From NCBI GenBank assembly GCA_041389225.1, contig JAWKSI010000001.1, forward strand, positions 51,821-115,820: a DNA stretch of 64,000 nt, given 5' to 3'. Positions 11,871 to 29,147 of this stretch are shown here, piece after piece. This DNA comes from Candidatus Doudnabacteria bacterium (GTDB lineage: Bacteria > Patescibacteriota > Doudnabacteria > UBA920). Each line of letters starts with the position of its first letter. Position 1 is the stretch's first letter. The translations under genes were made by a program, and so were the position numbers. The notes under the pieces are model-generated. The model had not been told where the DNA came from and did no database searches. It worked only from the letters and a program-made list of their open reading frames with translations.

Positions 11871-11961
11871 GGAGAGTTGGCTGAGTGGTCGAAAGCGCCT
11901 CACTGCTAACGAGGTAGGGGTTTATAGCCTCTCAAGGGTTCGAATCCCTTACTCTCCGCCA
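11871..11961 (+). tRNA. tRNA-Ser(GCT)
   Basis: GGAGAGT acceptor stem, D-arm GCTGAGTGGTCGAAAGC, anticodon loop cTGCTAa, long variable arm, T-arm GGGTTCGAATCCC, 3' end ACTCTCCGCCA. Confidence 0.85.
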
Positions 11962-12010
11962 CTAAAATTTTTATCGTGCAGACCTACACACTATCGATTT
12001 TAGGTTAAAT

Positions 12011-12040
12011 AAAACCGCCGTAAGGCGGTTTTATTTATTC
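12011..12040. terminator. bidirectional terminator (aaaaccgcc gtaa ggcggtttt)
   Basis: Hairpin flanked by A-runs and T-runs, between the tRNA and the vapC 3' end. Confidence 0.55.
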
Positions 12041-12510
12041 TATTTTAATTTTATATCTTTAGGTTTCAGTAAATTTATCCCTGGAACTATTTCGAAGTCG
12101 TCTTTACCATCCCTTGAGAGTATACTTTTAACATTATTATTTTTCATAATCACACAATGAAAAGCATCTCCCCAGCCAGGATTGTATAAATTCATATTTT
12201 CACCAACATCTGACCAAAAATCATCAAAGGTATAATTGCTGTTTTTATGTGTATCTAGGATAAAAAACTTAACATTATAGATCTTTGATGATCTTTGAAG
12301 CCTATTAATATCTGAAGCAACTTTTTTGGGCTTTATATTAAATTGATTTATTAATACTTTTGCCAGCTCAACAAAAGTAAATAATGAGGTTACAAACCTA
12401 ACACTCTCCATCCCACTTAGCACCTCAACAGCATTTTCTATTTCAGAGCTAAATTCATCTTTCATATACCATGAAACAAATATATTTGTATCTAAATATA
12501 TATCTTTCAT
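12040..12510 (-). CDS. vapC: PIN-domain protein (VapC-like toxin)
   Basis: The N-terminus MKDIYLDTNIFVSWY is typical of PIN domains (D..N, acidic residues). 156 aa. Confidence 0.7.
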   Translation of the reverse strand: MKDIYLDTNIFVSWYMKDEFSSEIENAVEVLSGMESVRFVTSLFTFVELAKVLINQFNIKPKKVASDINRLQRSSKIYNVKFFILDTHKNSNYTFDDFWSDVGENMNLYNPGWGDAFHCVIMKNNNVKSILSRDGKDDFEIVPGINLLKPKDIKLK

Positions 12511-12511
12511 T

Positions 12512-12667
12512 TTATTTCTTAGCTTTGAATTTTACTGGAACTTCAACCTTTACAGCTTTTTTAGCTTTAAATGAAACACTCTCACCATTTTTAGTTTTAA
12601 AACTAACAGTTACCGGCTTTTGGACTGTCTTGGTAGCCTTAAATTCAACAATTTTTTTGCGTGTCAT
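12512..12667 (-). CDS. unannotated 51-aa lysine-rich ORF (MTRKKIVEFKATKTVQKPVTVSFKTKNGESVSFKAKKAVKVEVPVKFKAKK), a candidate antitoxin partner of VapC
   Basis: Minus-strand translation from the ATG at 12667. Its stop overlaps the vapC start. It falls below the 60-aa cut-off of the ORF track. Confidence 0.4.
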   Translation of the reverse strand: MTRKKIVEFKATKTVQKPVTVSFKTKNGESVSFKAKKAVKVEVPVKFKAKK

Positions 12668-12676
12668 AATTCGATT

Positions 12677-13949
12677 CTACACCAATTTAAGAATCTTGTC
12701 TTCATACTTAATTTTAGATTTTAAATTAGACAATAATAATCTTTTCTCACTAATAGAGCCTTCTTTCAGCAAATATTTTGCATAATTTTTTATGTCAGCG
12801 TCTTTATTATTAGAGACACTCTTAATACCCAAGACACTGGATTGAAATTTATTAAACCTGCTTACTTCGAGCTCTAGCCTTTTCTTAATCCCCAGTTCAT
12901 CAATATCCGTATAATCAATAATTTTAGCTAACTGATCAATCAGCTCTTTTTCTCTAATATACTTGTTTTTACAAAACCTATCTTTAGCTCTAGTGCAGGA
13001 ATAATAAATGTATTTGTTTGACCCACCGTTTTTTAGCTCTTTCCATTTTTCTTCTGCTGATATTCCTGAGCCACACTTACCGCATATAAACATTTTAGTA
13101 AATGCGAATTCTTTAGATTGTCTAGAAATATTATTTCTCTTAAGTTGTTCCTGAACTTTATCAAATAACTCCTTGGTTATAATTGGCTTGTGTCTTCCTT
13201 GATAAACATTGCCGCTATTTCTTGGATATTCAAATTCTCCGTAATAAAAGGTGCTTTGAAGTATTTTGTAAACCGCCGAAAGTGTTACAGGTCTATTACC
13301 TCTTGTATAGAAGTTAAGCTCGAATCTTAACCAGTGATATAACTTTCTACCTGACCATTTTTCGTGAGCCACTTTTTCGAACATTTGTTTTATAACTAAG
13401 GCTCTCTGAGGATCCTGAATAACCACACCCTTTCTATCTGTGCGCTTTTGGTTTAGATAGCCCAAAGGTGCCATATTTGGCCAAAAACCAAGCTCTACGC
13501 GCGTCCTCAACCCTCTTTTAACATTTATACCACGATTGTCATTTTCTAGCTTAGCTTGAGACCCCAATATCATCAGCAAAAACTTTTCATTTGGATTATT
13601 AGAAAACTCTTGGCCGTATGTTCTAATTTTTTGCAATTGCCCTCCATCCATTAAATCGACAATAGATCCCAAGTCTCCAGCATTACGAGATAACCTATCA
13701 GGCGCCCAGGTGAGTATGCCGTTAAATTCTACCCTCTTTAATTTCGCTTAAGAGCTCATTAAAGACTGGTCTTTGATTAGTTTCTTTAGCAGAATGTGAT
13801 TCTTGTTTAATTGTCACAATCTCAAGCCGATCACGCTCTGCTATTTGTAGCATCTCTTTTATCTGTGAATCTATAGACATTACCTGCTTCTCGTCGCCCT
13901 CGGAGCTACCCCTTGCGTATAGACAATATCTTATCTTTATTTCTTCCAT
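12677..13949 (-). CDS. large serine recombinase: resolvase catalytic domain plus recombinase and zinc-ribbon domains, interrupted by one frameshift at about 13722-13730
   Basis: The N-terminal 75-aa ORF (YARGSS..Q) reads on in another frame as ...GILTWAPDRLSRNAGDLGSIVDLMDGGQ.... Removing one T from the attt run at the junction restores ...EGRINGILTW.... The C-terminus has Cys-rich CGKCGSG..YYSC. Confidence 0.8.
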
Positions 13950-14020
13950 ACCACATTAATGACGCACCTGCCTTTTTTAGTCTAGGTAGATAATTTAAAA
14001 ATCAGCCATTTGGCTGATTT

Positions 14021-14722
14021 TTAAGAATACTTATATTCGAGTTTCTCTTTGACTTTTTTCCAATTTGGTAGCTTCTTGTCTAAACAAGCAAAAAATAACT
14101 TATTATGCTTTCTATATTTAATATGGCATAGCTCATGGATTAAAACATAATCTATACAATCTTTAGATGCGTGAATAAGTTTTGGATTTAATGATACTTT
14201 TTTACCCTTAAGGAAACTTCCCCACCTCTTCGACATATTTCTTAGTTCTAACACCAAATCATTATTTTTCGGAAATAGCTTTTTCATCTTCTCAAACCTA
14301 TCCTCAAATACAACAACTGTTTTTTCTTTATACCACCGATCAATTAATATTTTTGTATACGAACTGTTCTTAACTGATTTACTTGTTCTCACCTCAAAGA
14401 CCCCTCTAAAGAGGCATATCGAATCAGCTTTAGCACTTTTAACTACTAATTTATATTGCCTACCTAAATATAATAAACTTTCCCCAGAAACATACTCACG
14501 TTTATATTCTTTTTTATTCACTCGATCAAAAAAGTCGAGCTGTTTATTCATCCAAAACCATTTTCGTTTTAAAAACTGTTCAACTTTATACAGGTCAATA
14601 TCCAAGGGACCTTTGACCACTATTTCTTTGCTCGGTTTAATCGTTAAAGATAAACTTTTGCGTTTTTGTTTTATTAATTGATATTGGTATTGGTAATTTC
14701 CGTATACAAATTTTTTGATCAT
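14021..14722 (-). CDS. WLM/DUF45 (YgjP-like) zinc metallopeptidase, a known companion of type I R-M operons
   Basis: HEXXH motif in DYVLIHELCHIKYRKHN. Lies immediately downstream of hsdR. Confidence 0.7.
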   Translation of the reverse strand: MIKKFVYGNYQYQYQLIKQKRKSLSLTIKPSKEIVVKGPLDIDLYKVEQFLKRKWFWMNKQLDFFDRVNKKEYKREYVSGESLLYLGRQYKLVVKSAKADSICLFRGVFEVRTSKSVKNSSYTKILIDRWYKEKTVVVFEDRFEKMKKLFPKNNDLVLELRNMSKRWGSFLKGKKVSLNPKLIHASKDCIDYVLIHELCHIKYRKHNKLFFACLDKKLPNWKKVKEKLEYKYS

Positions 14723-17700
14723 TAGATTATCTTATGGTTATTCTCTGCCAACTGCACGGCTTTTTCAATCACTTCTTTACTAGCTTCTGGGCTTAAATCC
14801 AAATCATATTCAACCCTTGCCACATCATACAAATAGTCGTCAATTTTATTCATCATCTTTCTTTTTACATCTAAATTTTTATGCCAATCCACTATACTTT
14901 CTTGTTTGATTATACCTATGATATCTAATATTACCGAGGTATAATTTTCGCCGTCTAAAGGTATTAAGTTCTGTAAATTTCTATACAGAATGTCAGCACC
15001 TTTAACAGCAGTTACTTTTTCTGGCAAGCCTTCATCTCTTTTATTTACCACTTGGTCTTCAATCAACCTTAATTGTTTTAAGGCTTCGATGTCTGCCAGT
15101 TTCTTTAATCTCATTTGATCTAAAATCTCTTGGATTTTTTGAAAAGCGATCATAAAATTCTGGATCAGACTCAACATTTTCTCTAATTGTCTTATCTGTC
15201 TGGGCCGCGATCGCTTCTGCTTTAGATTTGTCGGAACCTAGATTTTCTACTTCTTCTTGAAATGCATCTCGGTCGGTAATGTTAACTTGCTTAGTCAAAA
15301 GTTCTACCCCTTTTGCATCAACGTATTTATCCAGCACATCAATTAAAGACTGTTTGTATTCTCCTAAATCTACAGAATCACCATAAACCAAACTTGAAGC
15401 TTTTCTTAATTCCATAAATTTCTTTAGCTCTCTTTTATATAAATCAATGTGTTTAAATTCTTTTACAAAGTTTTGTAAGACGAGACATTCATTAAACTCA
15501 CGAATAAACTTATTCATAGTTTTATAAAATACATCTCTTTGCTGTTCATCCTCTAAATGTCTAATAAAAACCTCGTCATCTTTAGAACCCTTAACTTCTT
15601 TAAAAATATCGTGAAGTTCACCATATGAATGTTCCAGCGATTCTATTTTGTCATCTACATCAATTAAAGCACTCTTAACATCATCTTCATCATAATTACC
15701 AAATAGTTTCATTGCGGTATCAATATTCTTAGCATTTTCCGAATAGTCGACTATAAAACCAGCAGTTTTTGGCAAGACTTCATTTTCAAATAATCTATTG
15801 ACCCGAGCAATAGCTTGCAGTAAATTATGATCTCTTAAGTCTTTGGATAAATACAAAACTGTATTTCGTGGAGCATCAAATCCAGTAAGAAGCTTATCTA
15901 CCACTATAATAATCTCCACCCCATCTTCATTATTTTTAAAACTACTAATCACACCGTCTTCATAAGATTTTACACTAGAGTGATTAGCCCTAACTTCGCC
16001 CAAATAATCCACTACAGTCTTTTTATGGGTATTAACTTTATCTCCATCCTCATGTTCATCAGAAATCACTACAGCTGTATTGATCTTCCCACTAATTGCA
16101 AAAGCTCGCTGGAACAACACCGCAGAAAACTTTGATGGTGCTACAACCTGTGCCTTTAATCCAGTACCTTTAAAATTATCCAAAAAGTGTTTTTCTATAT
16201 CAAAAGCTATCTCTGCAATTCTCTGGGGATTGTCTTTAATAATTTTACTTCCTACATATTGCTGAATCTCTTGCTTTTGTTTGTCCGACATTCCAGCGGT
16301 AATCCGCTCGATATGTTTGTCGATCATGTCTTTATTCTGCACTAAATCGACATATCGACCCTCATAAATTAAAGGTAAAATAACTTTATCATCTAAGGCA
16401 TCATCAATTGTATACCTATCAATGTAGCTACCAAATTTTCTCCAACTTTCAGCTTCTTTTTTCATTAATGGAGTGCCTGTAAAGGCAATATAACAAGCGT
16501 TAGGAATTATCCGATTCATTTCCAAATTGGCAATCCCGGTTTGACTGCGGTGTGCTTCATCAATTAATACAAAAATATTTGAATCATTATCAACCAAGCC
16601 AGTTCGCTTTTTACTGGCTGATTCAAACTTATGCACCAAAGTAGTAATTACGTCCAAACTCTTATCTTTTATTAATCCTAATAAATGCTCGCCACTAGTG
16701 GCCTGGGTTACACCCTTTTTAAGATTACAGTTTTTAAAAGTATCTTTAATTTGTTTGTCTAAATCTTTACGATCTGTAACTACAATCACTCTTGGGTTGG
16801 TAATATTCGGATCTTCTATTAACGCTTTCACAAACATGACCATTGTTAAAGATTTACCTGACCCTTGAGTATGCCAAATTAACCCACCTTTTCTCTTACC
16901 TTCGCCATTAGCACCTTCTTCGTATTCATTAATTCGATTAAATATTTTACGGATTGCAAAATACTGTTGGTACCTGGAGATCTTTTTTATCCCAGCGTCA
17001 AAAACTATATAGTTTTTAGTTAAATCTAAAAGCCTGTCTGGTTTAAATAAAAACACCACACCTTTATCTTGTTCTGTTACCAATCTACTTGTATGTTGTG
17101 TAGTTTGTTCAGGAGATCCATTTAAATCTTTAACCAACTGATTATATACTTTTGGTTCAATTTGCCTTTGCATTACAGACAAAACCTCAGATTCTACTTC
17201 TTCTACACTTAAGCCTTTTTCCTTCCATGCGCTATAAAACTTATTAGGTGTTCCCGTGGTACCATATCTTAAGTCCTTACCATTAGTGCCAACTAATAGT
17301 TGAGCATATGTAAATAACTTAGGGCAATAATCTGCTCCCTGGTTGCGATTTTGTTGCGAGAAAGCCTTGTCTACATCTACGCTAGATTTTTTGTTTTCTA
17401 TTACTGCGAAGGGTATTCCGTTTACAAAACAAACAATGTCTGGGCGAATCTTTTGCTTTCCTTGGGCTTCAAATTCTACAGATACATGGTAGTCATTATT
17501 ATCTGGATTTTTAAAATCTATAAATCTAAAATTCTTAGAAACCTTTTTACCATCGTGATGCACGACTATTGTTTTCCCACCAGCCGTCGGCATAATAGTG
17601 TTAAACACTTCTTGTGAACTATCTATTAAGCCTTTGTATTCTAAATTCTCTAATTCATCAATTGCATCCCTAACATCCTTTTCTCCAAACTTATAGTTTT

Positions 17701-17896
17701 TACCATCTACTTCGTAACTATTAAGCTCCATTAGTTTTTTAGATGCAATATCGTGCAGCAAAAAAGTGCTTGAGTCATTTCCACGCAGCTGCATTATTTC
17801 TTCTCGAGAAATATATTTATATCCAAGATTAATCAATAACTCTACAAAAGGTAATTGTGATTGCCTGGCTTCATCAAAATGTACTTGTTCTAACAT
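14722..17896 (-). CDS. hsdR: Type I restriction enzyme R subunit HsdR, roughly 1060 aa if one frameshift at the A6 run (about 15160-15166) is corrected
   Basis: N-terminal HsdR nuclease region, SF2 helicase motifs (HTQGSGKSLT, FVLIDEAHRSQ) and a C-terminal domain carried by the 151-aa ORF. Reading A6 as A5 gives the continuous ...DPEFYDRFSKIQEILDQMRLKK.... Confidence 0.9.
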
Positions 17897-17998: not shown

Positions 17999-18544
17999 TT
18001 AATTACCTAAGGAGCCCTTTTCTTTTTGCATGATTTTACTTTTAATACTAGGATTTTCTAGTTGATCAAAATATTCTGCGCCAATTTTTTTATATAAAGA
18101 GGAAGCGTATTTTTTATTTGGAAATAATACCTTTAAAAACCTATTTTCGGATATCAAAAAATCAACGAGCATTTTATAGTCGCCATCGCCAGACACTAAG
18201 ACAACTTTATCAAAGTCATCTTTTTTATACATCTTTTTCATAATAGAAAAAATAATATCACAATCCACATTTCCTTTTTTATTTCCCAGCATTGCAGAAT
18301 TATGTTCTCTAAAGACTAAAACAAAACCGGCTTCTTGTATATCTGTATATAAATCTTGATAGTCTTCGTTAAGCCACCCTAAAAAATAATATGCAGTTTT
18401 AACCTTATATTTATTTGCCAAGTATACCCGAAATTTCTCCAAGTCTACTTTCCAAGGACTTATTTCATGCTTAGTGGTGCCCATAAATAAATTTTGCCCA
18501 TCAATATAGGCTAAATTATTTGGTTGTGATTGATAGTCATTCAT
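17999..18544 (-). CDS. NYN (LabA-like, PIN-superfamily) nuclease-domain protein
   Basis: AYIDGQNLF...DCDIIFSIM...VVLVSGDGDYKMLVDFL matches the NYN pattern (IDG.NL...D......VLVSGD.DF). Lies between hsdS and hsdR. Confidence 0.7.
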   Translation of the reverse strand: MNDYQSQPNNLAYIDGQNLFMGTTKHEISPWKVDLEKFRVYLANKYKVKTAYYFLGWLNEDYQDLYTDIQEAGFVLVFREHNSAMLGNKKGNVDCDIIFSIMKKMYKKDDFDKVVLVSGDGDYKMLVDFLISENRFLKVLFPNKKYASSLYKKIGAEYFDQLENPSIKSKIMQKEKGSLGN

Positions 18545-18552
18545 ATAAGATA

Positions 18553-19731
18553 CTACTTTACTTTTTCTAATAAGTCTTCTGGGGTTCTAATCTTCCCAGT
18601 AACTAAATTGTTTAATAAATATTTTTTCTGTTCTTGCCAGAGGGTAAGTTTTTTCTGGAGAGCGGCGATCTCATCATCAGCAGAGGTGAGAATATCAGCG
18701 ATTGCTTTTTGTTCCCTTAGTTCTGGAACACTATATTTAATAGACAGAAGTTCTGACTTATTCAACTTTGCTCTTGTTCCTCCGTTCAAATACATCAAAA
18801 CATTTTTATGCACCGTTGAATAAAAAAGGAAATCTTGAGAATTTTTTTCATTCGCTTTAATAACATGCGCATGATTGTTAACCCATGATTTCCCATATAC
18901 ACGATAAGCGATTGGTCGATTTTGATATTCATCAAATTGACCTCCATCTTCTGCAACCAGAATAATATCTTCATCAAAAAGATAATCATTTACATAATCA
19001 ACGATATTATTTGCACCGCAGTATGGAATAATGCCTTGCATTCTCGATCTTTCGTCAGAGTTTAATGGAACTCTCTTTGCGTCTAAACAAATAGCAATAT
19101 CTTTAAGTTTTACCTCTTTCCACTCGTCACTAAACCCAGGTAAACGTTTTTTGCCTGTGAGGAGTTGTTGCATCAAACCCTTTTTGATATTTTTCTTTAA
19201 AGCAATTTTCTTTTTAAGTTTTTCAATAGCCTCATCCCATGTTTCGAGAACAGTAGCGATACGGTTTTGTTCAAGGAGAGGGGGAAATTTCATGGGGCAA
19301 GAAAGTATGTCATCTTTTCGTAAGTTTGTTTGATTTACCCCATCATCAAAAGAAAGGAAGTAGCGATTTCTGCTTAGAGCAAGATATAAGAACTTCCTTG
19401 ATACCCCCTTTGCCCTAAATCCTCCAATTCTTTGATTTAGAGTATAAGTATTGTCTTTATTGACATAAAAACACTTTGCTATAGCTTTCCCATTTGGGAC
19501 ATCACTCATTACCATTGCAATGTCTCCTTTTTTTAAAGGGACCAAAAACTTATTTGAGTATTTTTTTATTTTTCCATTAGATGAAATAAATTTTGAATTC
19601 ACAACTACATAATTTCCGTTTTCATCAATATCTTTTTCATGCCCTTTTCCATTGAAAAAGTCTACTACTTCTCTGAGTTGTTTTTTTACCCACCCATTAG
19701 GAATATTTTGTTGTTTATTTCTGGTCTTCAT
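18553..19731 (-). CDS. hsdS: Type I restriction-modification specificity subunit HsdS (two target-recognition domains)
   Basis: 392 aa. The central and C-terminal conserved coiled regions (LLEQNRIATVLE.., LREQKAIADILTSADDEI) are typical of HsdS. Confidence 0.8.
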   Translation of the reverse strand: MKTRNKQQNIPNGWVKKQLREVVDFFNGKGHEKDIDENGNYVVVNSKFISSNGKIKKYSNKFLVPLKKGDIAMVMSDVPNGKAIAKCFYVNKDNTYTLNQRIGGFRAKGVSRKFLYLALSRNRYFLSFDDGVNQTNLRKDDILSCPMKFPPLLEQNRIATVLETWDEAIEKLKKKIALKKNIKKGLMQQLLTGKKRLPGFSDEWKEVKLKDIAICLDAKRVPLNSDERSRMQGIIPYCGANNIVDYVNDYLFDEDIILVAEDGGQFDEYQNRPIAYRVYGKSWVNNHAHVIKANEKNSQDFLFYSTVHKNVLMYLNGGTRAKLNKSELLSIKYSVPELREQKAIADILTSADDEIAALQKKLTLWQEQKKYLLNNLVTGKIRTPEDLLEKVK

Positions 19732-20208: not shown

Positions 20209-20214
20209 AATTAA

Positions 20215-20612: not shown

Positions 20613-20626
20613 TATTAATTTTTGAC

Positions 20627-22129: not shown

Positions 22130-22709
22130 TATTTTGTAGTTTAAGAAAAATGGTCTTTAGTATATCGCGTTTTAGCTGCTTTTGTTTGTCGTGGAGGTTT
22201 ATCTGCTTAATAACATTATTATACAAATCAACTATAGTTTTTTGTTGTTCTAGACTAGGTAATAAGATAGAAGTTTCACCTAAGACAGATTTAGATATGT
22301 GCATAATAGTACTTCCTCTGGCTTTTTGCATTATTTCTGATTGAAAAGCAGGTGAGTTTAAGTAAAAATTTAAGTACTCAGGATTAACCTTTTTGTCTTT
22401 GATTCTAATAATATACAAAGAGGAGTTTGCCATTGATTTTTGTTCGCTTTGAACCAGGGAAGATCTAAATTCTTTCCCGGGAGTACTGCGGGACAACATT
22501 AGAATATCATTCTGGTGTATCACTGCTGGAGACCTGGCTGGTAAACTTTCTAGCTTAGGTAAATTACTCAGCTCCGATATCTTGGTATTGCTTACAATGT
22601 CAGATGCTTGCACCACTGGATATTGGCCGTTTTCAGAGTAGTCCTTAATATAGATTGCTGCCCCAGATATAATATCGACAAGATCTTTTAACATAATATT
22701 TGAACTCAT
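22122..22709 (-). CDS. hsdS: half-size HsdS (single target-recognition domain), overlapping the hsdM start
   Basis: 195 aa. It has a TRD-like region and the conserved C-terminal helix (LEQQKTIVDLYNNVIKQINLHDKQKQLKRDIL). Confidence 0.6.
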   Translation of the reverse strand: MSSNIMLKDLVDIISGAAIYIKDYSENGQYPVVQASDIVSNTKISELSNLPKLESLPARSPAVIHQNDILMLSRSTPGKEFRSSLVQSEQKSMANSSLYIIRIKDKKVNPEYLNFYLNSPAFQSEIMQKARGSTIMHISKSVLGETSILLPSLEQQKTIVDLYNNVIKQINLHDKQKQLKRDILKTIFLKLQNNV

Positions 22710-22739: not shown

Positions 22740-23153
22740 TCAAATATTTTGATTATTTTTCTTAATCCCTGCAGCTTTAGCAATAATATCTGCCAAAGTA
22801 TGGGCTTCTTTTAGGTTTTCTGGGATTTCTTGTTCTTTTGAATAGACAATTCTAATGGTCTTATCACTACTATCTTTACTCGAGTAATGTTTATTATTAT
22901 GCTTTAATGCAAATTTTATTAAATCGCTCTTCCCTTCCTGTATCCCTTGTATCAGAGCATTTTCTGCAATATCCCCAATATTTTCTTTACCCTCTTTAAT
23001 TGCTTTATTAGTTTGAGCGGTAAACCGTTTACTAGATTTCCTTAATCTGTAATAGCTTGCCTTGCTGAATCCAGTCTTTTTACAGGAATACAAAACATTG
23101 CCAGTTTTTTCTAGCTCAGTTAAGAATCTTTGTTTTTGATCTTTAGAAATCAT
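22740..23153 (-). CDS. hypothetical protein with an N-terminal HTH (KKTGFSKASYYRLRK)
   Basis: ORF with an HTH-like motif. Its stop overlaps the start of the upstream methyltransferase. Confidence 0.4.
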   Translation of the reverse strand: MISKDQKQRFLTELEKTGNVLYSCKKTGFSKASYYRLRKSSKRFTAQTNKAIKEGKENIGDIAENALIQGIQEGKSDLIKFALKHNNKHYSSKDSSDKTIRIVYSKEQEIPENLKEAHTLADIIAKAAGIKKNNQNI

Positions 23154-23905
23154 TTTGTAAGAGATTGGTATCTATCGATAATTACTTGGCAGTAATTTAA
23201 GTCTATTTCAAAAGCAATACATTTCCTGCGTGTTTGCTCGCATGCAAGTAAAGTTGACCCAGAACCTGCAAACAAATCCAGTACTGTATCACCTATATTA
23301 CTACTATTTAAAATCATCTCTCTTAAAAGCGGTAGGGGCTTCATCGTTGGATGAAGTTTGCTTTTCTGCGGTTTTGGATAAAACAAAGCTGATTTACTTT
23401 TGGATTTATAAAATTTATGCCTGCCGTGCCAGCCGTAATAGATGAGTTAGTGCTGTGGTAAATAATCGAGTCGTCCTATCACTGGCTTATTTTTTACCCA
23501 GACAAGCATTTGCCCAAGTTTAATCTGTACTTTATCGCAAGCTTTCTTTAATGCAAAAATTAACTTATCTGAATTAAAAATATATATTGAATTATGTTCT
23601 GCAAAATATGGCGCAATGTTTTGCAGCCACCCAACAGAAAACTCCTTATAACTCTCTTCTGACTGCACTTCATCTCCAATTATTTCTGTATCATTACTTA
23701 ATTCTGCAAACTTGTATTTACTTTTTGTATAATCTACGCCGTAAGGCGGATCGGTGAGTAATAAATTAATTTTCTTTCCTGTTAATGCCTGATCCACCAA
23801 GTCTTTATCACGGCTATCACCGCAAACAAGAATATGACTACCAAGTTCGACTATACTGCCGTACTTAATTAAGTTTTTTGGCTTTTTGTCCTGTAAGTTC
23901 TTCAT
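23150..23905 (-). pseudogene. ParB-associated N6/N4 DNA methyltransferase (second copy) interrupted by an in-frame TAA at 23447-23449
   Basis: LLLTDPPYGV motif in the N-terminal part. HPTMKPLPLL and FAGSGST motifs in the C-terminal part. The two ORFs are in the same frame: ...DYLPQH*LIYYGWHGRHKFY.... Confidence 0.7.
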
Positions 23906-25129
23906 ATCTATTGATAATTAATTGTGTAAAGATAGGTGATTGCTCAATTACAAAAGCCTTTCGCTTTAATTGCTCGCAAGCAAGAAGCTCACTACCACTG
24001 CCTCCGAAACCGATAAAAATATTGTCTCCGGGTTTACTACGCCTCAGTAGTGGTCGTTCAAATAAAGACACGGGCTTCTGGGTTGGGTGCTCATAACTGC
24101 CCTGCGATTCTTTCGTCAACCAAATATCAATCATATCTTCAATGTTAGAAATGGTAGCATTACCAGTTCCAACATTGGATTTAATATCTCGTGGAAGTTT
24201 TTATGTTTATCAGATAAATATGGCTTCCCAAGAGTTCCATAAATTACTGGCTCATAGCACTTATTAAATCCAGATTTTGGAGTACAGTTGATCCCATTTT
24301 TGATCCAGACGCAAGTCCGCTTATAACTAATGCCTAGATTTTTATATATTGTTTGAACCAATCCTACGTTCCGCTGATCATTCCATATAAATATGTGAAC
24401 GTCGGGTTTTGTAATTTTAAGGCTAGTAGATATAGCTTTAGTTAAGAACTTCTCGTACTCATCACTCGACAAGTTATCGTTAAAATGTCCTCCATACTGA
24501 GATTTCCCAGATATTCCTTTATCATAATCCATGCAGATTCCATATGGCGGGTCACTAAGAATCATATCCATCTTTTCTCCGTTAGTTACTTTTAAAACAT
24601 CTGTTTCTTCAGTGCTGTCGCCGCAAAGTAGATAGTGATTTCCAAGTTTGAATAAATCCCCAGTTTTTATCTTTGTGTGTTTTGCCTGCTCTTCTTGCTG
24701 GGGCTTAATATCTAAATCTTCAAGAGAAATTTGGTTATCCCAAATATCACTTAACTCATTTTGACCAAACCCTATATCGAGCAACAAGTCTAAATCAAAT
24801 TCCTTCAAAAGCTCGTTGTTCCATGACCCAGTATTCTGGTTACTTCTAAGCAAATATTCTTCAAGCTCTGTTTTGTTCAGAAGACGACTTGGTACACGAA
24901 CTTCTATTTCTTCATCTGTTCTGCCAAGTAGCTTTAATATTTTGAGCCTTTGATGACCACTAATTACTGTGCCATCAAGATTAATAGCAATAAGCTCTAC
25001 ATAGTTAAACCGTTTAAAACTTTCAGTTAAGTGCTCTTTTTGAGTTTCGGACAAAGTCCTTGGATTTTTGTCGTAAGGAATTAAATCCTTAACTAGTCTT
25101 TTTTGCGTAGACCAAACTAAATTTTTCAT
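23865..25129 (-). CDS. ParB-like nuclease domain fused to an N6/N4 DNA methyltransferase, split by a frameshift at an A5 run (about 24196-24200)
   Basis: N-terminal ParB-like region (LIPYDKNPRTLSE), MTase motifs ILSDPPYGI, EHPTQKPV and FIGFGGSGS. Reading A5 as A6 gives the continuous ...DKHKKLPRDIKSNVGTGNATISNIEDMIDIWL.... Confidence 0.75.
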
Positions 25130-26109
25130 AGTATTGCTTTTTAATTGTCTAGTATAATTTCAGCAGACATATTAGCGTTACCTCAAAAGGAGTTTAGAAA
25201 ATAAAAAACTGCTTTTTTAAAAGCAGCTTTGTTTGTTATCCACTCCGAATAATTACAGCTCCGGAGTTTTATTTAAATTTAAAGTTATACGAACTATTTA
25301 TTCTATAACCAAGACCGGGTTGAGATTCAACTAAATTAATAGTAGTATCTAATTCTCTACGCACCTTTTTATTAATATTGCTATACCTTTTCTAAAGGCC
25401 TTCGCTTGAAGCATACGATCCAGGTGCTACTATTAATTGTTCTGAAGTTCTATATTTTATATCTTCAGATAAAGCTTTCAAAGCCATTACGCCCTTATTA
25501 GTTAAATTTATTTGCTTATCATTACCTAAATGTAGTGTCCTTGACCGTATATCTAAGAAAATAGATTTTTGATTTATTACACGCCACTATTCTGTTGCTC
25601 AAAAGTTCGATAATTCTTTGATTTTGTTTTGTATTTATAATCTATGCTTCTTGTCTACTAGATTCGTTTAAGCGTGTAGTAATATTTTTTAAAGGTTTAA
25701 CAATATGACTAAAATCGGTAATTCGTCTTAAACTCTGAGAAAGCTCATTAATTGAATTTAAAAACGGCAAGTTAAAATCAGATTTTCTCACCTCGCTCTA
25801 TTCGTTTACTTATAGATTTTTATTTTCAAGCTTTACTTTCATACTATAATTATACCGTAAAATTAAACTTAAAATCATGGAAATTAGCCAAAAAACCATA
25901 GATAGACTTCATAAATATTTCTTAAAAACCTATGGGGTGGATATGACAGAAGAAGAAACGAGAGAATCAGCTGAAAGTCTAATAGGGGCTTTTTCTCTAC
26001 TAATAGAGATGGATCAAAAGGAAAACCAAAAGCAACAAATGAATAGTAATCAAAATAACAAATAACTGTTATAATGATATAAAATTACTTAATTTTATTA
26101 AAAAATCCT

Positions 26110-26729
26110 ATGAAAAATGAAATAGAAGCAACTTTTCTATCGGTAGACAAAGATGATATGAGAGAAAAGTTTAAAGTAACGGCTATACCCTAAAAACTCC
26201 AGAGTATATGATGCGACGAAAGACTTTTGATTTCTCCAAAGTCTCCCCTGGTAAAAATAAATGGGGTCGAGTTAGAACAGAATCGGATAAAACTACAATG
26301 ACAATTAAAGAAATTACTGGTGACGGTGTAAATGATACCTATGAAGTAGAATTAGTGGTTAACGATTTTGATACTGCCACAGAATTCTTTGAAGCATGTA
26401 ACATTCACCCTAAATCTTTTCAAGAAAATATGAGAGAAGTCTGGGTTAAAGATAATATCGAAGCTACCATAGATATGGCCAGGTCTAAATCCTTTTGTTG
26501 AATTTAGAGACCATAGATGAATCAGCTCAAAACAGCAAGTAAAGAACTTGAGTTTAATTATGATGAGGCTCTATTTGGTAGTATTGATTTAGTATATGAA
26601 AAAGAACTGGAATTCCAGCTGCGGAAATTATCAAACTCCCAGAAATTACATTCGACAAAGTCCCTCAAAAATAAAAAAACGAGCCGTGGAAATAAATTCC
26701 GCGGCTCTTTAGTTTGTAATTTGAATTAA
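26110..26729 (+). pseudogene. CYTH-like (class IV adenylate cyclase / triphosphate tunnel family) gene fragmented into about 3 pieces
   Basis: The N-terminus MKNEIEATFLSVDKDDMREKFKV carries the CYTH EIE..F signature. It continues in the 26208..26501 ORF after a stop/frameshift, and possibly in 26517..26729. Confidence 0.4.
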
Positions 26730-26757
26730 AGTGTCCTTAATTGGTGGGTATTTATAC

Positions 26758-27705
26758 TCACCAGGCTCTTCCATGCACCATCCCTCCACATTTGTCCAGA
26801 GCCCTGCAATTGAAATTGCAGAATGGTGTCACCGTTAACCGAAGAGAGGTCTTAGATAAAAGCCTTTTGACCTCAATTTCTCCGATTTGACCCTGCAAAG
26901 CAGTCTTTAAACTGTCAGGTTTGCCGAAATGAGTTGGAAGGAAGAAACCAATATCCCTTCTTAAATAACAGAAGTATAAATTTAAGTATGGGTCAACCCT
27001 AGCGTAATCACCAAAACCCTCCTCACAAACTTCTGTATACTGACAAGTCGAGCAAGGATGGTTTGAGCGATCCAGTTTGTCACCAAGCTTTACCTCGACT
27101 AAGCCCCCGCCCAGTAAATGGAACCTTAACCTTTTTCTTCCCAATTGCTTTCTTACCCTTTCAATCTCTATCGTTCTTGGCAAGACCATATTTTTAACAA
27201 CTGGTCGCCAATCTTGATAATGAGGTTTTATGGGTTTGGTCACTTTCAGGGGTCCATAACAAAGTGAACAGTTTAAGGCGACACTTATACTCTTCCAAAA
27301 GATAACTGTTCTGGAATGTCAGAAGTATAACCTTTTAGCAAAACTCGGTTAAAATCAATTTTAATACCCAGATTCAGGGCTTTTTTTACCCCAGATATAA
27401 ATTGATCGTAGTCTCCATGACCACCAGAAATCTCTTTGAAGACTATTGGATTAGTCGAATGCCAACTAGTCCGTATAAAGGACAAGCCTGCGACGGAAAG
27501 CTGTTTTCAAATCCGCCTAACAATTGTCCGTTAGTAGTCATTGAAACTTTAAACCCTTTATCAACCAAACAGTGAACAACATCATTGATTCGATACTTGC
27601 CATCCCTCCACAATAGCGGTTCAAGAGCACCGATTTCCAAGTTTCGATTCCCCCTATACTAATCCACTCATCAGCGATACTCAAGATGTTACCAAATGAC
27701 AGTGG
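26758..27705 (-). pseudogene. radical-SAM-like enzyme remnants (at least 3 frame-broken pieces). The canonical CxxxCxxC region is missing.
   Basis: Motif EPLLWRDGKYRINDVVHCLVDKGFKVSMTTNGQLL. Cys-rich C-terminal fragment (CSTCQYTEVCEEGFG..., FCNFNCRALDKCGG). Confidence 0.45.
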
Positions 27706-27707
27706 TT

Positions 27708-28270
27708 TCATGATCCCCCTCCTACTTTTGAAATATAACCCAGAATCTTCTCTAGCGTTTGTTCTTTTGAATCACTACTGGTATCCAAAGTGATCAAGTC
27801 CATGTCCAAAAACTTTTGAACCTCGTCAAGAAAACCACTGTTGTTTTCAAGCTTCACATCACTTTTCTTTTCCAATCTATTTCTAATCCGAGCATCCCGC
27901 ACACCGGAATCACAGGTTAACAAAAATGAATAGTCGGGTTTTATAATGTTCGACTCATCGTGAATTAATTTTATCCTGCGATCCAGTACTAAATGGTATG
28001 CCATTGTAGAAGATATGTACCTATCAGAAACAACAGAATTTCTTTTCAGAAATTTCTGAATCTGAGAACTATCATGGTCAATAGCTAACCTGTAAAAGCA
28101 ATACCTCTGAATAGGAGTGGCTGTGTTTTCAACTTCTTGCGAAACTGAGCAAAACTATCAGAAGGTGATTTGTAGCATATATAACCACATCTCTCAGCCA
28201 ACAATTCAGTTATTGTAGTTTTACCTACACCATCGACTCCGTCTATAGAAATAAACAAGTTCTTTTTCCA
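27708..28270 (-). pseudogene. thymidylate (dNMP) kinase-like gene split in two (P-loop N-terminus and lid/C-terminus)
   Basis: ISIDGVDGVGKTT P-loop in 28085..28345. The C-terminal fragment 27708..28004 reads ...DYSFLLTCDSGVRDARIRNR.... Confidence 0.5.
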
Positions 28271-28283
28271 CAATACACCTCCG

Positions 28284-28772
28284 CTACTGAACAGAAACAA
28301 CGTAGTATTCCTTGCTATTGTTTCTGATATTAATCTCCACCTCATCTCTCTTTTTGCCGATTAAAGCATTTGAAATTGGGGAACCGAGAGAAACTACTCT
28401 TATGACTTTATCCTCAAACTTAAATTCTTGACCACCGCCAGTTGGAAGCAAGAAGTATCTAACTATTTGATTAGTCCCATACTCTTCTAACTCGACAATA
28501 GCGTAAATTGATCCATGTTGGATAGATTTCGGGTGGTCAACTTTTAAAGTCTTTAACCTTGCTAGCTTCTCCCTCAAATCTACTAAAGTTCTTTCTTGAC
28601 CGCCTGCTAAATATTGAGCCTCTTCTTTAAAAGTATCGTAACGAGAGACCATTGCTCCTTTATGGAACTTTGATTCATCTTCTGCTGCTTTTTTAGAAGT
28701 TTCTGATATTTTAATATCAGCCTCAACAATAGCGATAATTTTGTCTACTATTTCTTTCTTTAATTCTTCCAT
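28284..28772 (-). CDS. GreA/GreB-family (Rnk-like) transcription elongation factor homologue
   Basis: N-terminal coiled coil. The C-terminal FKBP-like domain reads YFLLPTGGGQEF...IRVVSLGSPISNALIGKKRDEVEI. Confidence 0.55.
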   Translation of the reverse strand: MEELKKEIVDKIIAIVEADIKISETSKKAAEDESKFHKGAMVSRYDTFKEEAQYLAGGQERTLVDLREKLARLKTLKVDHPKSIQHGSIYAIVELEEYGTNQIVRYFLLPTGGGQEFKFEDKVIRVVSLGSPISNALIGKKRDEVEINIRNNSKEYYVVSVQ

Positions 28773-29035
28773 ATAACCTCCAAGTATTTTTTAAAATTCA
28801 ACTAAATTATTATAATTTAGCTAATAACTATAGTATAAAAATCAGTTTTAGTCAAACGAAAAACCATGTGTAGCTGTGTCTCATTTGTCTCATTTTGTTG
28901 ATTAAAATCGCGACCCGAACTCCTCAAATTTGATATACTTAAAATATCTATAAAAGCCTTACTGGGCTTGCTCTCTGCCGGTACTTAACCAGAGTGGCCC
29001 GCCACGGATCTGTTTGCCACTTGTGGTAAATAGAA

Positions 29036-29147
29036 CCATGGTAATGATAAGGTCTTCTCTATCCTGACCATTTTTATCCGCCGACTCTAAGAGGCGGAAT
29101 ATATAGCGGAAATGTCGGAGCTTTAGCTTCGGCCTTACTCTCCACCA
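29036..29147 (+). mobile_element. right-end (attR-like) arm of the tRNA-Ser(GCT) island, ending in a degenerate copy of the tRNA 3' end (ccttactctccacca)
   Basis: cttactctcc is identical to the 3' end of the tRNA-Ser(GCT) at 11947-11956. The preceding roughly 100 nt is about 70% identical to 31701..31796. Confidence 0.55.

What the first reader, a model, noticed from the sequence alone, without database searches (positions are those of the whole stretch)
11871..29147. Roughly 17 kb integrated island at tRNA-Ser(GCT), bounded by a degenerate direct repeat of the tRNA 3' end
The tRNA-Ser(GCT) 3' end (cccttactctccgcca, at 11946-11961) recurs as ccttactctccacca at 29133-29147. The serine recombinase gene is adjacent to the tRNA side. 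The interval holds typical mobile or defence cargo: VapC with a small partner ORF, a full type I R-M with TIR/NYN passengers, two orphan ParB-MTases, an HTH protein, and decayed CYTH, radical-SAM and dTMP-kinase genes. The opposite gene orientation and the flanking terminators also set it apart.
Basis: partly seen in the sequence, partly recalled or inferred. Interest (0 to 1): 0.65.

Follow-up and report, generated by a model that had tools for sequence, protein, structure and literature searches.

The report
Decayed serine-recombinase defence island at tRNA-Ser
A 17-kb block of foreign, partly decayed defence genes sits at the end of a serine tRNA gene in a tiny "candidate phyla radiation" bacterium, and it belongs to a very large family of mobile elements whose serine-type integrase is always found next to tRNA genes, which is unusual for this kind of enzyme.

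Summary
tRNA-Ser(GCT) lies at 11871-11961, and 15 of 16 bases of its 3' end recur at 29133-29148. The only mismatch is the discriminator base.

- The interval has lower GC (0.34 against 0.39) and deviant tetranucleotide use.
- Three distant Doudnabacteria relatives keep the backbone ClpB-ComF-tRNA-Ser(GCT)-ECF sigma-DUF5667. In two of them nothing lies between tRNA and sigma gene.

The integrase is a large serine recombinase (LSR). It is broken by one frameshift and sits 716 nt from the tRNA. Relatives at 58-75% identity are abundant across Patescibacteria. In all 57 related loci that have a tRNA downstream of the LSR, the first one is convergent with it (Ser, Gln, Trp and others). The sequence abutting the tRNA co-varies with LSR clade. 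Several loci have 16-25 nt repeats of the tRNA end.

The closest relative shares LSR, HsdR and HsdM at 72-78% in a host whose ComF is 26% identical, so the element transfers horizontally.

The methylases and the HTH gene are element backbone, not cargo. Cargo is defence: a type I R-M, a ThsB-like TIR, NYN, VapC and a decayed viperin with its kinase. This copy is a fossil. tRNA targeting by serine integrases is essentially unreported, so this is a new variant of a known kind.

The parts
11871..11961 (+). Host tRNA-Ser(GCT), the integration target; intact.
   Evidence: ARAGORN; Rfam RF00005, 57 bits. It follows ComF, as in relatives L081 and L084 and in L099, L102, L025, L004 and L010.
11947..11962 (+). 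Left copy of the direct repeat (attL core): the last 15 nt of the tRNA plus 1 nt.
11963..11992 (+). Element end abutting the tRNA (the P-prime arm): TAAAATTTTTATCGTGCAGACCTACACAC. It carries the family motif TATCG-N4-GACC-N-ACAC.
   Evidence: The same motif lies in the same register after the tRNA in the closest LSR relatives L099, L102, L004, L002, L006, L007 and L075. Across 53 junctions, arm similarity tracks LSR distance (Mantel r = -0.71, 0/2000 permutations).
12006..12037 (.). Hairpin terminator supplied by the element. It would serve the tRNA on the + strand and vapC on the - strand.
   Evidence: (I19).
12040..12667 (-). PIN-domain (VapC-like) toxin at 12040-12510, plus a 51-aa upstream ORF at 12512-12667 that is the presumed antitoxin.
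   Evidence: PF01850 at 6.6e-7. The partner ORF has no family hit, so the pairing is inferred from position only.
12677..13949 (-). Large serine recombinase pseudogene. Resolvase domain at 13722-13949; Recombinase plus Zn-ribbon domains at 12677-13672. One frameshift at about 13730-13741, in or next to a GGG run.
   Evidence: Pfam; three-frame translation; tblastn with P0002 shows the frame change -3 to -1; DNA. The catalytic YxRxS motif is present.
14021..14722 (-). YgjP-like metallopeptidase, travelling with the hsd operon.
   Evidence: PF01863 at 2e-46; 51% identical to the YgjP gene of L099.
14722..17896 (-). HsdR (type I restriction subunit) with a frameshift near the C-terminus. The ORFs 15059-17896 and 14722-15177 overlap, and an A6 run lies at about 15135.
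   Evidence: The L099 homologue (72% identical) is one ORF of 1063 aa.
17999..18544 (-). NYN-domain nuclease, a passenger inside the hsd operon.
   Evidence: PF01936 at 1.4e-15; weak PADLOC NYN match.
18553..19731 (-). HsdS specificity subunit (two target-recognition domains).
19732..20613 (-). ThsB-like TIR protein (19732-20208) and a small conserved ORF (20452-20613), sitting in the slot between hsdM and hsdS.
   Evidence: PF08937 at 1e-27; PADLOC ThsB at 2e-64. The same TIR plus small-ORF pair occurs in L086, L023 and L005. In L099 and L100 other genes occupy this slot.
20690..22709 (-). HsdM (20690-22129) and an extra half-size HsdS with one recognition domain (22122-22709).
   Evidence: HsdM is 78% identical to that of L099, which has the same half-HsdS next to it.
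22740..23153 (-). Small HTH-like protein. Part of the conserved backbone of the element family.
   Evidence: Weak HTH_Tnp_1_2 match. Homologues occur in 22 of 80 LSR loci, always after the methylases and on the LSR strand.
23150..25129 (-). Two N6/N4 DNA methyltransferase pseudogenes (backbone). MT1 at 23150-23905 has an in-frame stop. MT2 at 23865-25129 has a ParB-like N-terminus and one frameshift at about 24173-24179.
   Evidence: Pfam; tblastn with intact L070 homologues; DNA. Homologues occur in about 42 of 80 LSR loci, upstream of and co-oriented with the LSR. The L097 homologue carries ParB_N plus N6_N4_Mtase.
25130..26100 (.). About 1 kb of AT-rich DNA with stop codons in all six frames. 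It may be a divergent regulatory region or fully decayed genes.
   Evidence: No similarity to other loci. L097 has a comparable 670-nt gap upstream of its ParB-methylase.
26110..26729 (+). CYTH-domain gene remnant.
   Evidence: Weak PF01928 match; 40% identity over 73 aa to the intact CYTH gene of L099.
26758..28345 (-). Decayed viperin-type defence pair. Radical-SAM fragments at 26758-27711 and viperin-associated kinase (VakA) fragments at 27708-28345.
   Evidence: Radical_SAM at 0.009; pVip at 0.006 and VakA at 2e-9 and 5e-4. The genes are in several frames and fragments.
28284..28772 (-). GreA/GreB-C-domain protein. It appears intact and is the first gene after the element's right-end regulatory region.
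   Evidence: PF01272; NCBIfam GreA models far below cut-off.
28827..29004 (-). Conserved non-coding right-end region. Module 1 at 29004-28951. Module 2 at 28898-28874 is a tandem repeat, AAATGAGAC twice. A sigma-70-like promoter, TTGACT-17-TATAGT, lies at 28855-28827.
   Evidence: blastn and nhmmer give 24 module-1 hits in 21 distinct LSR loci plus the window, all on the LSR strand. Where attR is defined (window, L033, L037, L054), module 1 lies 130-270 nt inside it. No conserved RNA fold. Promoter scan.
29133..29148 (+). Right copy of the direct repeat (attR core), with A in place of the discriminator G.
29149..29206 (+). Just outside the repeat: a perfect 16-nt palindrome CTCGTGCTAGCACGAG (29149-29164) overlapping a 21-bp-stem hairpin (29161-29206), followed by the sigma-gene promoter box. 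The palindrome is absent from the empty sites of relatives. It matches, in register, the element end of another LSR clade.
   Evidence: (I6).

Best explanation
The interval from about 11962 to 29148 is one integrated mobile element of about 17.2 kb. It entered the 3' end of the host's tRNA-Ser(GCT) gene by site-specific recombination catalysed by its own large serine recombinase (LSR).

The element's attachment site carries a copy of the last 16-25 nt of the tRNA. The tRNA gene therefore stays intact after integration, and a second copy of its 3' end is left at the far end of the element. The element also brings a new terminator for the tRNA.

Read on the LSR strand, the layout is:
1. attR repeat
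2. terminator hairpin
3. conserved regulatory region (modules 1 and 2, and a promoter)
4. cargo slot 1: GreA-like gene, decayed viperin and kinase, decayed CYTH
5. backbone: two DNA methylases and a small HTH protein
6. cargo slot 2: type I R-M with embedded TIR and NYN genes, and YgjP
7. the LSR
8. cargo slot 3: vapBC
9. attL at the tRNA

The element belongs to a very large LSR family that spreads horizontally among Patescibacteria and is specialised on tRNA genes. This copy is a fossil: the LSR, both methylases, HsdR, the viperin pair and CYTH are all broken. It probably cannot excise by itself and persists as a partly functional defence island.

Shown here: the insertion, its boundaries, family membership, the tRNA association, horizontal transfer and the gene lesions.
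Inferred: that the LSR is the integrase, where the crossover lies, what the regulatory modules do, and that the element is immobile.
For: Boundaries: the 15/16 repeat of the tRNA 3' end is far above chance.

Insertion:
- The backbone ClpB-ComF-tRNA-Ser(GCT)-sigma-DUF5667-tRNA-Ser(TGA) is contiguous in L081 and L084, and present in L083 with the tRNA inverted and one extra 219-aa ORF.
- Sigma is 62-71% and ComF 41-46% identical to the window's.
- GC and tetranucleotide deviation are confined to 12-28 kb.
- Pseudogenes are confined to the island, while flanking ORFs of up to 1383 aa are intact.

The LSR as integrase:
- It has Resolvase, Recombinase and Zn-ribbon domains.
- No tyrosine integrase, transposase, phage or conjugation domain turned up in any island ORF.
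- The genome collection holds 438 LSR relatives, of which 80 loci were fetched.
- In 52 of 52 fetched loci with a downstream tRNA, and in 5 further loci, the first tRNA is convergent with the LSR.
- 43 of 50 loci with a full 10 kb of downstream sequence have such a tRNA.
- In 10 loci the LSR stop is within about 210 nt of the tRNA end.
- The DNA abutting the tRNA co-varies with LSR clade (Mantel r = -0.71, 0/2000).
- Repeats of the tRNA end of 16-25 nt delimit elements of 5-18 kb in L023, L033, L037, L052 and L073.

Same family, same target: the two closest LSRs (75% identity; L099, L102) also lie at tRNA-Ser(GCT) downstream of a ComF-like gene and carry the same arm motif.

Horizontal transfer: L099 shares LSR at 75%, HsdR at 72% and HsdM at 78%, but its host ComF is only 26% identical.

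Single-element layout: the right end carries the family's conserved module 130 nt inside the repeat, as in L033, L037 and L054. L097 shows the same order: module, cargo, ParB-methylase, small ORF, LSR, cargo, tRNA-Ser(GCT).

Lesions.
Against: - No close relative of the host is available. The empty sites come from genomes about as distant from each other as from the window, so recent mobility in this lineage is not shown.
- No excised circle or attP was found, and a search of metagenome contigs for the predicted pre-integration junction found nothing.
- Direct repeats of 16-25 nt are longer than the 2-bp crossover typical of serine integrases, and the crossover position cannot be read from the sequence.
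- The DNA right of the repeat (the palindrome at 29149-29164) looks like the end of another LSR-clade element rather than native flank, so the history of the site is more complicated than one integration.
- Co-variation of the junction with LSR clade could reflect common descent of whole elements rather than protein-DNA recognition.
- One lesion (HsdR) lies in an A6 homopolymer run and the LSR frameshift lies at a short GGG run; either could in principle be an assembly error.
Confidence: 0.82

Rival explanations
1. The interval is a composite made by tandem accretion of two or more elements at the same tRNA, rather than one element. The left 13 kb would be the LSR element. The heavily decayed right 4 kb (CYTH, viperin, kinase, GreA-like) and the palindrome beyond the repeat would be leftovers of older elements.
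For: - The right part carries several lesions per gene, whereas the left part has single lesions.
- The palindrome plus hairpin right of the repeat matches, in the same register, the tRNA-abutting end of another LSR clade (L025, L029, L023, L048). It is absent from the empty sites of L081 and L084.
- Mirror-image arrays exist. In L023 and L054 a remnant of a tRNA end is followed by the window-type arm motif.
- Several loci hold two LSR genes.
Against: - No internal copy of the tRNA end lies inside the interval above chance.
- The family's right-end module sits 130 nt inside the outer repeat, where it sits in singly delimited elements.
- L097 has the same order with cargo between module and methylase.
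- The closest relative, L099, also carries CYTH together with the hsd genes.
- A scar of an older element outside the repeat is compatible with the main explanation.
Confidence: 0.25
2. The island was inserted by a tyrosine integrase that has since been lost. The serine recombinase is a passenger with another role, such as a resolvase or an invertase acting on the hsdS genes (a half-size hsdS is present).
For: - tRNA 3' ends with restoring repeats are the classic signature of tyrosine integrases (PMC5704250, PMC7192596).
- The closest LSR relatives sit next to type I R-M genes, and in L099 the hsd block is inverted relative to the LSR.
- A 1-kb stretch (25130-26100) is fully decayed and could hide a lost gene.
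Against: - No Phage_integrase domain occurs in any island ORF or in the gene tables of L097, L099-L103.
- Only 7-9 of 80 LSR loci contain hsd genes, yet all loci with a downstream tRNA have it convergent with the LSR.
- In 10 loci there is no room for another gene between the LSR and the tRNA.
- The full and half hsdS genes are in direct orientation, and no long repeats lie between them.
Confidence: 0.05
3. The element is still active. The apparent pseudogenes would be assembly or consensus errors in a metagenome-assembled genome, or the element is mobilised in trans by another copy of the LSR elsewhere in the genome.
For: The HsdR lesion lies in an A6 run and the LSR lesion lies at a short GGG run. 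The attL arm motif and the right-end module are well preserved. LSR relatives are abundant, and some genomes carry two.
Against: - Lesions are confined to the island, while 47 kb of flanks have none apart from a possible split FIST gene.
- One lesion is an in-frame stop.
- The viperin, kinase and CYTH genes are shattered into many frames.
- The attR repeat has lost the discriminator base.
Confidence: 0.1
4. There was no insertion. The block would be ancestral and lost in the compared relatives, and the 16-nt repeat would be a chance or tRNA-derived similarity.
For: The compared relatives are distant (ComF 41-46%), and the window's tRNA-Ser(GCT) sequence differs from theirs.
Against: - Repeat statistics and composition.
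- Three relatives that are as divergent from one another as from the window all lack the block; L081 and L084 share the same tight tRNA-sigma junction, and L083 has one extra ORF.
- Element genes are 72-78% identical to those in a host with 26% ComF identity.
Confidence: 0.02

Closest known systems
SCC elements of staphylococci (SCCmec and relatives) moved by the Ccr large serine recombinases
   Same: - A large serine recombinase with Resolvase, Recombinase and Zn-ribbon domains. CcrB is the best-scoring named family for this LSR.
- Integration at the extreme 3' end of a conserved housekeeping gene, without inactivating it.
- Direct repeats of about 15-18 bp at both ends.
- Tandem or composite arrays at the one site.
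- Cargo of resistance and defence genes rather than phage or conjugation genes.
(The SCC properties are from general knowledge.)
   Different: - The target is a tRNA gene, and several different tRNAs across the family, not rlmH.
- There is a single recombinase of about 425-440 aa, not a CcrA/CcrB pair.
- The score is 107 bits against a cut-off of 900, so it is not a Ccr orthologue.
- The host is Patescibacteria.
- The backbone differs: two DNA methylases, an HTH gene and a specific non-coding end module.
Classical tRNA-integrated genomic islands, IMEs and prophages with tyrosine integrases
   Same: Insertion at the 3' end of a tRNA gene; a direct repeat that restores the tRNA; the integrase gene near the tRNA-proximal end; deviant composition; tandem accretion; defence and toxin-antitoxin cargo (PMC5704250).
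   Different: The recombinase is of the serine family, and no tyrosine integrase is present. In a survey of 2168 genomes only 14 of 297 serine-integrase elements were at t(m)RNA genes. The authors stated that such use had not been reported and needed proof (PMC7192596).
Phage serine integrases (phiC31, Bxb1, TP901-1, A118) and serine-recombinase IMEs (Tn4451 family)
   Same: Domain architecture; a presumed single-protein integration reaction; the integrase encoded next to the attachment site.
   Different: Those enzymes typically integrate inside protein-coding genes, with identity of 2 to a few bp, and often disrupt the target (PMC5704250). Here the target is a tRNA end with a restoring repeat of 16-25 nt. 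Only 11 relatives were found in 2.9 million viral contigs, against 438 in genomes. By sequence, the only solved structures matched are N-terminal catalytic domains.
Defence islands and type I R-M operons with embedded defence genes
   Same: A type I R-M (HsdR/M/S plus YgjP) with a ThsB-like TIR and an NYN nuclease inserted between the hsd genes, next to the remains of a viperin and its kinase, and vapBC. The slot between hsdM and hsdS holds different genes in L099, L100 and L086.
   Different: No ThsA partner for the TIR protein was found, so it is not a canonical Thoeris system. Several components are pseudogenes.

Membership tests
Large serine recombinase (serine integrase) elements | N-terminal resolvase catalytic domain with the serine nucleophile motif | tested here: met
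   PF00239 on 13722-13949. YARGS aligns with YTRVS of resolvase 3guv.
Large serine recombinase (serine integrase) elements | C-terminal Recombinase domain and zinc-ribbon domain | tested here: met
   PF07508 at 2.4e-15 and PF13408 at 2.9e-9 on 12677-13672.
Large serine recombinase (serine integrase) elements | Intact recombinase reading frame | tested here: not met
   One frameshift at about 13730-13741. Homologues of 426-443 aa are continuous.
Large serine recombinase (serine integrase) elements | Recombinase gene lies next to one attachment site of the element | tested here: met
   716 nt from the tRNA end in the window; about 100-210 nt in 10 relatives; always convergent with the tRNA.
Large serine recombinase (serine integrase) elements | Crossover at a central dinucleotide within short attB and attP sites; integration without host factors | not testable with these tools
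   Only attL and attR are available. The repeat is 16 nt here and 16-25 nt in relatives, so the crossover point is not defined.
tRNA-integrated genomic island | Insertion at the 3' end of an intact tRNA gene, bounded by a direct repeat of that end | tested here: met
tRNA-integrated genomic island | Empty site in related genomes | tested here: met
   L081 and L084 have tRNA-Ser(GCT) directly followed by the ECF sigma gene. These are distant relatives only; no strain-level comparison was possible.
tRNA-integrated genomic island | Composition differs from the flanks | tested here: met
   GC 0.341 against 0.389, p = 4e-6; highest tetranucleotide distances.
tRNA-integrated genomic island | Tyrosine integrase (the usual enzyme of this class) | tested here: not met
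   No Phage_integrase hit in any island ORF.
SCC / Ccr elements | Recombinase is a CcrA, CcrB or CcrC orthologue, and the target is the 3' end of rlmH | tested here: not met
   CcrB model scores 107 bits against a cut-off of 900. The target is a tRNA.
Prophage | Capsid, tail, terminase or lysis genes | tested here: not met
   None among the island ORFs. The LSR family is rare in viral contigs.
ICE / IME | Relaxase, coupling protein or type IV secretion genes | tested here: not met
   None among the island ORFs. The route of transfer is unknown.
Type I restriction-modification | HsdM, HsdS and HsdR all present and intact | tested here: inconclusive
   All three are present with strong matches. 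HsdR is split near the C-terminus in an A6 run, whereas the L099 homologue is intact.
Thoeris | ThsB (TIR) together with a ThsA effector | tested here: not met
   ThsB-like protein at 2e-64. No ThsA-type domain occurs in the island.
Prokaryotic viperin with kinase | Intact radical-SAM viperin next to a nucleotide kinase | tested here: not met
   Only fragments: pVip at 0.006, VakA at 2e-9 and 5e-4, in several frames.

The most novel reading that the evidence does not exclude
This LSR clade would be a dedicated tRNA-targeting branch of serine integrases. It would recognise the universal T-arm and acceptor end of tRNA genes, and change target (Ser isoacceptors, Gln, Trp, Leu, Arg, Lys, Asp, Gly) simply by carrying a different 16-25 nt mimic of a tRNA end in its attP. 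On this reading it is the main vehicle that moves defence islands between Patescibacteria. The conserved right-end module, which resembles a tRNA 3' half when read on the tRNA strand, would be an accessory or decoy site for the recombinase.
Probability: 0.3. Interest if true: 0.75.

Novelty: new variant of a known kind. Interest (0 to 1): 0.55.

Why it matters
Genomic islands at tRNA genes are routine, and this copy is a decaying one. What is not routine is the enzyme.

The literature I could search treats tRNA 3' ends as the territory of tyrosine integrases. It states that serine-integrase use of tRNA genes had not been reported and needed proof (PMC7192596; PMC5704250).

Here the serine recombinase belongs to a family with hundreds of members in species-representative genomes. 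Many more lie in metagenomes: the 120 best-scoring proteins listed are all 68-75% identical, apart from the window's own copy. Across Patescibacteria the family is invariably paired with a convergent tRNA gene.

If confirmed, this has several consequences:
- It shows that tRNA targeting evolved on the serine-recombinase scaffold.
- It gives a handle on how defence genes move among these reduced, largely uncultured bacteria, which lack obvious conjugative systems.
- It offers a set of compact integrases whose natural targets are highly conserved sequences.

The finding also shows that the methylases and HTH gene are part of a mobile backbone, which changes how such genes should be annotated in these genomes.

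Tried and rejected
- **Exact-protein look-ups** of the two flanking host proteins found nothing. A genome-collection scan with ComF found no close relative. The host has no close relative in the collections; the nearest ComF is 47% identical.
- **Metagenome search** for the predicted pre-integration junction (tRNA end joined to the right flank) gave 0 hits.
- **Viral contigs** gave only 11 LSR relatives and no recognisable attP.
- **Alternative genetic code** as the cause of split genes: rejected. Long flanking ORFs are intact under code 11, and the lesions are frameshifts or a TAA stop.
- **Internal extra copies of the tRNA end**, which would indicate a tandem boundary: none above chance.
- **Conserved right-end module as a structured RNA**: Rfam found nothing but the two tRNAs, and RNAalifold gave no consensus structure on 17 copies. 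The co-varying pieces are direct repeats, not complementary. It is better read as DNA-level regulatory sites upstream of a promoter.
- **hsdS shufflon driven by the recombinase**: no inverted repeats lie between the full and half hsdS genes, and both are on the same strand.
- **The tRNA gene itself was imported with the element**: considered, because the window's tRNA-Ser(GCT) differs strongly from the near-identical ones of L081, L083 and L084 and resembles those next to LSR elements in unrelated hosts. Not favoured. That tRNA type is widespread in Patescibacteria, and only 16-25 nt are repeated at element ends. The question remains open.
- **Annotation of minimal elements** (L052, L037) by Pfam gave almost only unknown proteins.
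- **Literature searches** for serine recombinases at tRNA genes in Patescibacteria found no description.

Full report
**1. Observation**

ARAGORN finds tRNA-Ser(GCT) at 11871-11961 (+) and tRNA-Ser(TGA) at 31359-31446 (+). Rfam confirms both. The last 15 nt of the first tRNA plus one base (CCTTACTCTCCGCCAC, 11947-11962) recur at 29133-29148 as CCTTACTCTCCACCAC. The only mismatch is the discriminator base. At up to two mismatches the only other match in 64 kb is the 3' end of the second tRNA-Ser. Shuffles give 0.05 matches.

**2. Source organism and gene content**

The window's own proteins are on record as a MAG of Candidatus Doudnabacteria (Patescibacteria), on a contig of 126 kb.

All island genes but the CYTH remnant lie on the minus strand. 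From the tRNA outwards they are:
- a PIN/VapC gene with a 51-aa partner ORF
- a large serine recombinase (LSR) split into a Resolvase piece and a Recombinase plus Zn-ribbon piece
- a YgjP-like peptidase
- HsdR
- an NYN nuclease
- HsdS
- a ThsB-like TIR protein with a small ORF
- HsdM
- a half-size HsdS
- a small HTH protein
- two N6/N4 DNA methylases
- 1 kb without ORFs
- a CYTH remnant (plus strand)
- radical-SAM fragments
- kinase fragments
- a GreA-like gene

PADLOC identifies the kinase fragments as viperin-associated kinase (2e-9) and gives a weak viperin match for one radical-SAM fragment. This pair is therefore a decayed viperin system.

**3. Gene lesions**

- The LSR has one frameshift at about 13730-13741.
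- The ParB-type methylase has one frameshift at about 24175.
- The other methylase has an in-frame stop.
- HsdR is shifted near its C-terminus in an A6 run, whereas its 72%-identical homologue in L099 is one ORF of 1063 aa.

Outside the island, ORFs of up to 1383 aa are intact.

**4. Evidence that the block is an insertion**

No close relative of the host exists in the collections. Three other Doudnabacteria (L081, L083, L084) have ComF 41-46%, sigma 62-71% and DUF5667 40-43% identical to the window's. They carry the same backbone: LemA, M48 peptidase, RecX, ClpB, ComF, tRNA-Ser(GCT), ECF sigma, DUF5667, tRNA-Ser(TGA) and, further on, RecG.

In L081 and L084 the tRNA is followed by a terminator hairpin and, about 140-150 bp on, the sigma gene. 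A box (GCTAAAATATAG) precedes that gene and also precedes the window's sigma gene. In L083 the tRNA-Ser(GCT) lies on the opposite strand and a 219-aa ORF sits between it and the sigma gene. These three genomes are as divergent from one another as from the window.

Composition agrees. GC is 0.341 inside and 0.389 outside (p = 4e-6). The four 4-kb windows within 12-28 kb have the largest tetranucleotide distances.

**5. The recombinase family**

A protein search with the repaired LSR returned the capped maximum of 8000 hits. Apart from the window's own copy, all of the best 120 are 68-75% identical. Those that carry a name are Patescibacteria.

A scan of one genome per species found 438 relatives, and 80 loci with 10-kb flanks were fetched. 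In all 52 loci that have a tRNA downstream of the LSR, the first one lies on the opposite strand, as in the window. So do five further loci.

Of 50 loci with a full 10 kb downstream, 43 have such a tRNA. In ten of them the LSR ends within about 210 nt of it. The tRNAs are Ser (GCT, TGA, CGA, GGA), Gln, Trp, Leu, Arg, Lys, Asp and Gly.

The 45 nt abutting the tRNA 3' end fall into groups that follow the LSR tree (Mantel r = -0.71; 0 of 2000 permutations). The window's arm (TATCGTGCAGACCTACAC) matches that of its nearest LSR relatives (TATCGGAGTGACCCACAC in L099 and L102; similar in L004, L002, L006, L007 and L075).

Where the second end falls within the fetched flank, a repeat of the tRNA end of 16-25 nt is found. 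These repeats delimit elements of 5-18 kb in L023, L033, L037, L052 and L073.

**6. Horizontal transfer and layout**

The two closest LSRs (75%) also lie at a tRNA-Ser(GCT) that follows a ComF-like gene. L099 shares HsdR (72%), HsdM (78%), YgjP (51%), a half HsdS and CYTH (40%) with the window, while the host ComF is only 26% identical. The element has therefore moved between distant hosts and used the same target.

The methylases occur in about 42 of the 80 loci and the HTH gene in 22. They always lie upstream of the LSR and on its strand, so they are backbone. In L097 they directly precede the LSR.

A conserved non-coding region lies near the right end (28874-29004):
- Module 1 gave 24 nhmmer hits in 21 distinct related loci plus the window, all on the LSR strand. 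It lies 130-270 nt inside the repeat wherever that end is defined.
- Module 2 is a tandem 9-nt repeat whose sequence varies between loci.
- The region has no conserved RNA fold.
- A good sigma-70-like promoter (TTGACT-17-TATAGT, 28855-28827, minus strand) follows, and then the GreA-like gene.

I read this as the regulatory region of the element's first operon. That is an inference.

Both ends of the 17.2-kb interval therefore carry family-specific sequences. This favours a single element with three cargo slots.

**7. Mechanism**

The best-supported reading is LSR-catalysed integration. The attP would carry a mimic of the tRNA 3' end, so that the tRNA is restored. The element also supplies a new terminator (12006-12037).

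The crossover point is unresolved. Two placements are possible:
- It may lie at the tRNA terminus. The repeat would then reflect similar half-sites in attP and attB, and the clade-specific arm would be the other attP half-site.
- It may lie at the T-loop end of the repeat, which is the tRNA-restoring arrangement known from tyrosine integrases.

No transfer machinery is encoded, and the family is rare in viral contigs. The route between cells is unknown.

**8. Complications**

Immediately right of the repeat lies a perfect palindrome, CTCGTGCTAGCACGAG. It overlaps a 21-bp-stem hairpin. It is absent from the empty sites of relatives. It matches, in register, the tRNA-abutting end of another LSR clade. 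The mirror arrangement occurs in L023 and L054. This suggests a scar of an earlier element, or a preferred flank for integration. It does not change the boundaries.

The window's tRNA-Ser(GCT) also differs markedly from that of the three Doudnabacteria relatives, and resembles those next to LSR elements elsewhere. I leave this unexplained.

**9. Comparison with known systems, and novelty**

The nearest named recombinase families are CcrB and XisF, both far below their cut-offs. The only solved structures matched by sequence are catalytic domains.

Functionally, the closest analogue is the SCC/Ccr system: a serine recombinase, the 3' end of a conserved gene, repeats of about 15 bp, arrays and accessory cargo. 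The target class differs.

Reviews and a large survey assign tRNA targets to tyrosine integrases. They state that serine-integrase use of tRNA genes was unreported and unproven (PMC5704250; PMC7192596). My searches found no description of this family.

**10. Verdict**

It is a member of a large and apparently undescribed tRNA-associated serine-recombinase element family, so I rate it a new variant of a known kind, with moderate interest.

Noticed in passing
window 28874-29004 (minus strand): A conserved non-coding region near the island's right end. Module 1 (GCGGGCCACTCTGGTTAAGTACC...CAAGCCCAGTAAGGCTTTT) gave 24 nhmmer hits in 21 distinct LSR loci plus the window, always on the LSR strand. 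Read on the other strand it resembles a tRNA 3' half with an odd T-loop. Module 2 is a tandem repeat (AAATGAGAC twice) whose sequence varies from locus to locus, as operator sites do. No RNA fold was found, and the function is unknown.
   Followed up: partly
window 29149-29206: A perfect 16-nt palindrome, CTCGTGCTAGCACGAG, lies directly after the right repeat. It matches in register the tRNA-abutting end of a different LSR clade (L025, L029, L023, L048) and is absent from the empty sites in L081 and L084. It may be the scar of an earlier element or a preferred integration flank.
   Followed up: partly
window 11871-11961 against L081, L083, L084, L099, L040: The window's tRNA-Ser(GCT) differs in the D-arm, anticodon stem, variable arm and T-stem from the near-identical tRNA-Ser(GCT) of three Doudnabacteria relatives. 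Its 5' half is almost identical to tRNAs next to LSR elements in unrelated hosts. The window's tRNA-Ser(TGA), by contrast, has its last 40 nt identical to that of relative L084.
   Followed up: partly
window 31447-37795: A second variable region lies after tRNA-Ser(TGA): a FIST gene that looks split (31951-32835 and 32858-33103), a Cache sensor plus histidine kinase (33502-36385), a response regulator, DUF4389 and DUF5673. Relatives L083 and L084 have a single ORF between this tRNA and RecG, and L081 has different genes including a TIR protein. No integrase was seen here.
   Followed up: partly
window 19732-20613; L086 7494-8085; L023 4474-5353; L099/L100 6118-7761: The slot between hsdM and hsdS in this type I R-M cassette holds different passenger genes in different copies. 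It holds a ThsB-like TIR plus a small ORF in the window, L086 and L023. It holds a 436-aa unknown protein in L099, and DUF2130 plus a 107-aa ORF in L100, although the LSR proteins of L099 and L100 are identical.
   Followed up: partly
L099 1305-9863 against window 14021-22709: In the closest relative the whole hsd block (half HsdS to YgjP) is inverted relative to the LSR gene. There the LSR abuts the half-size hsdS, whereas in the window it abuts YgjP.
   Followed up: no
L075 3027-12820: Two LSR genes face outwards-pointing tRNA-Ser(TGA) and tRNA-Ser(GCT) genes from either side, so both tRNAs of one locus appear to be occupied by family elements. L086 also holds a second LSR copy, convergent with the first; no tRNA was found in that locus.
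   Followed up: no
window 25130-26100: About 1 kb of AT-rich DNA (GC about 0.30) with stop codons every few codons in all six frames, between the ParB-methylase start and the CYTH remnant. It has no similarity to other loci.
   Followed up: partly
window 996-4862 and 48850-53001: Two very long intact ORFs (1288 aa and 1383 aa). The first has only a weak helix-hairpin-helix match. The second was not examined.
   Followed up: no
L083 10742-11638: In one relative the tRNA-Ser(GCT) lies on the opposite strand, and a 219-aa ORF without family hits sits between it and the sigma gene. This is a different local rearrangement at the same site.
   Followed up: no
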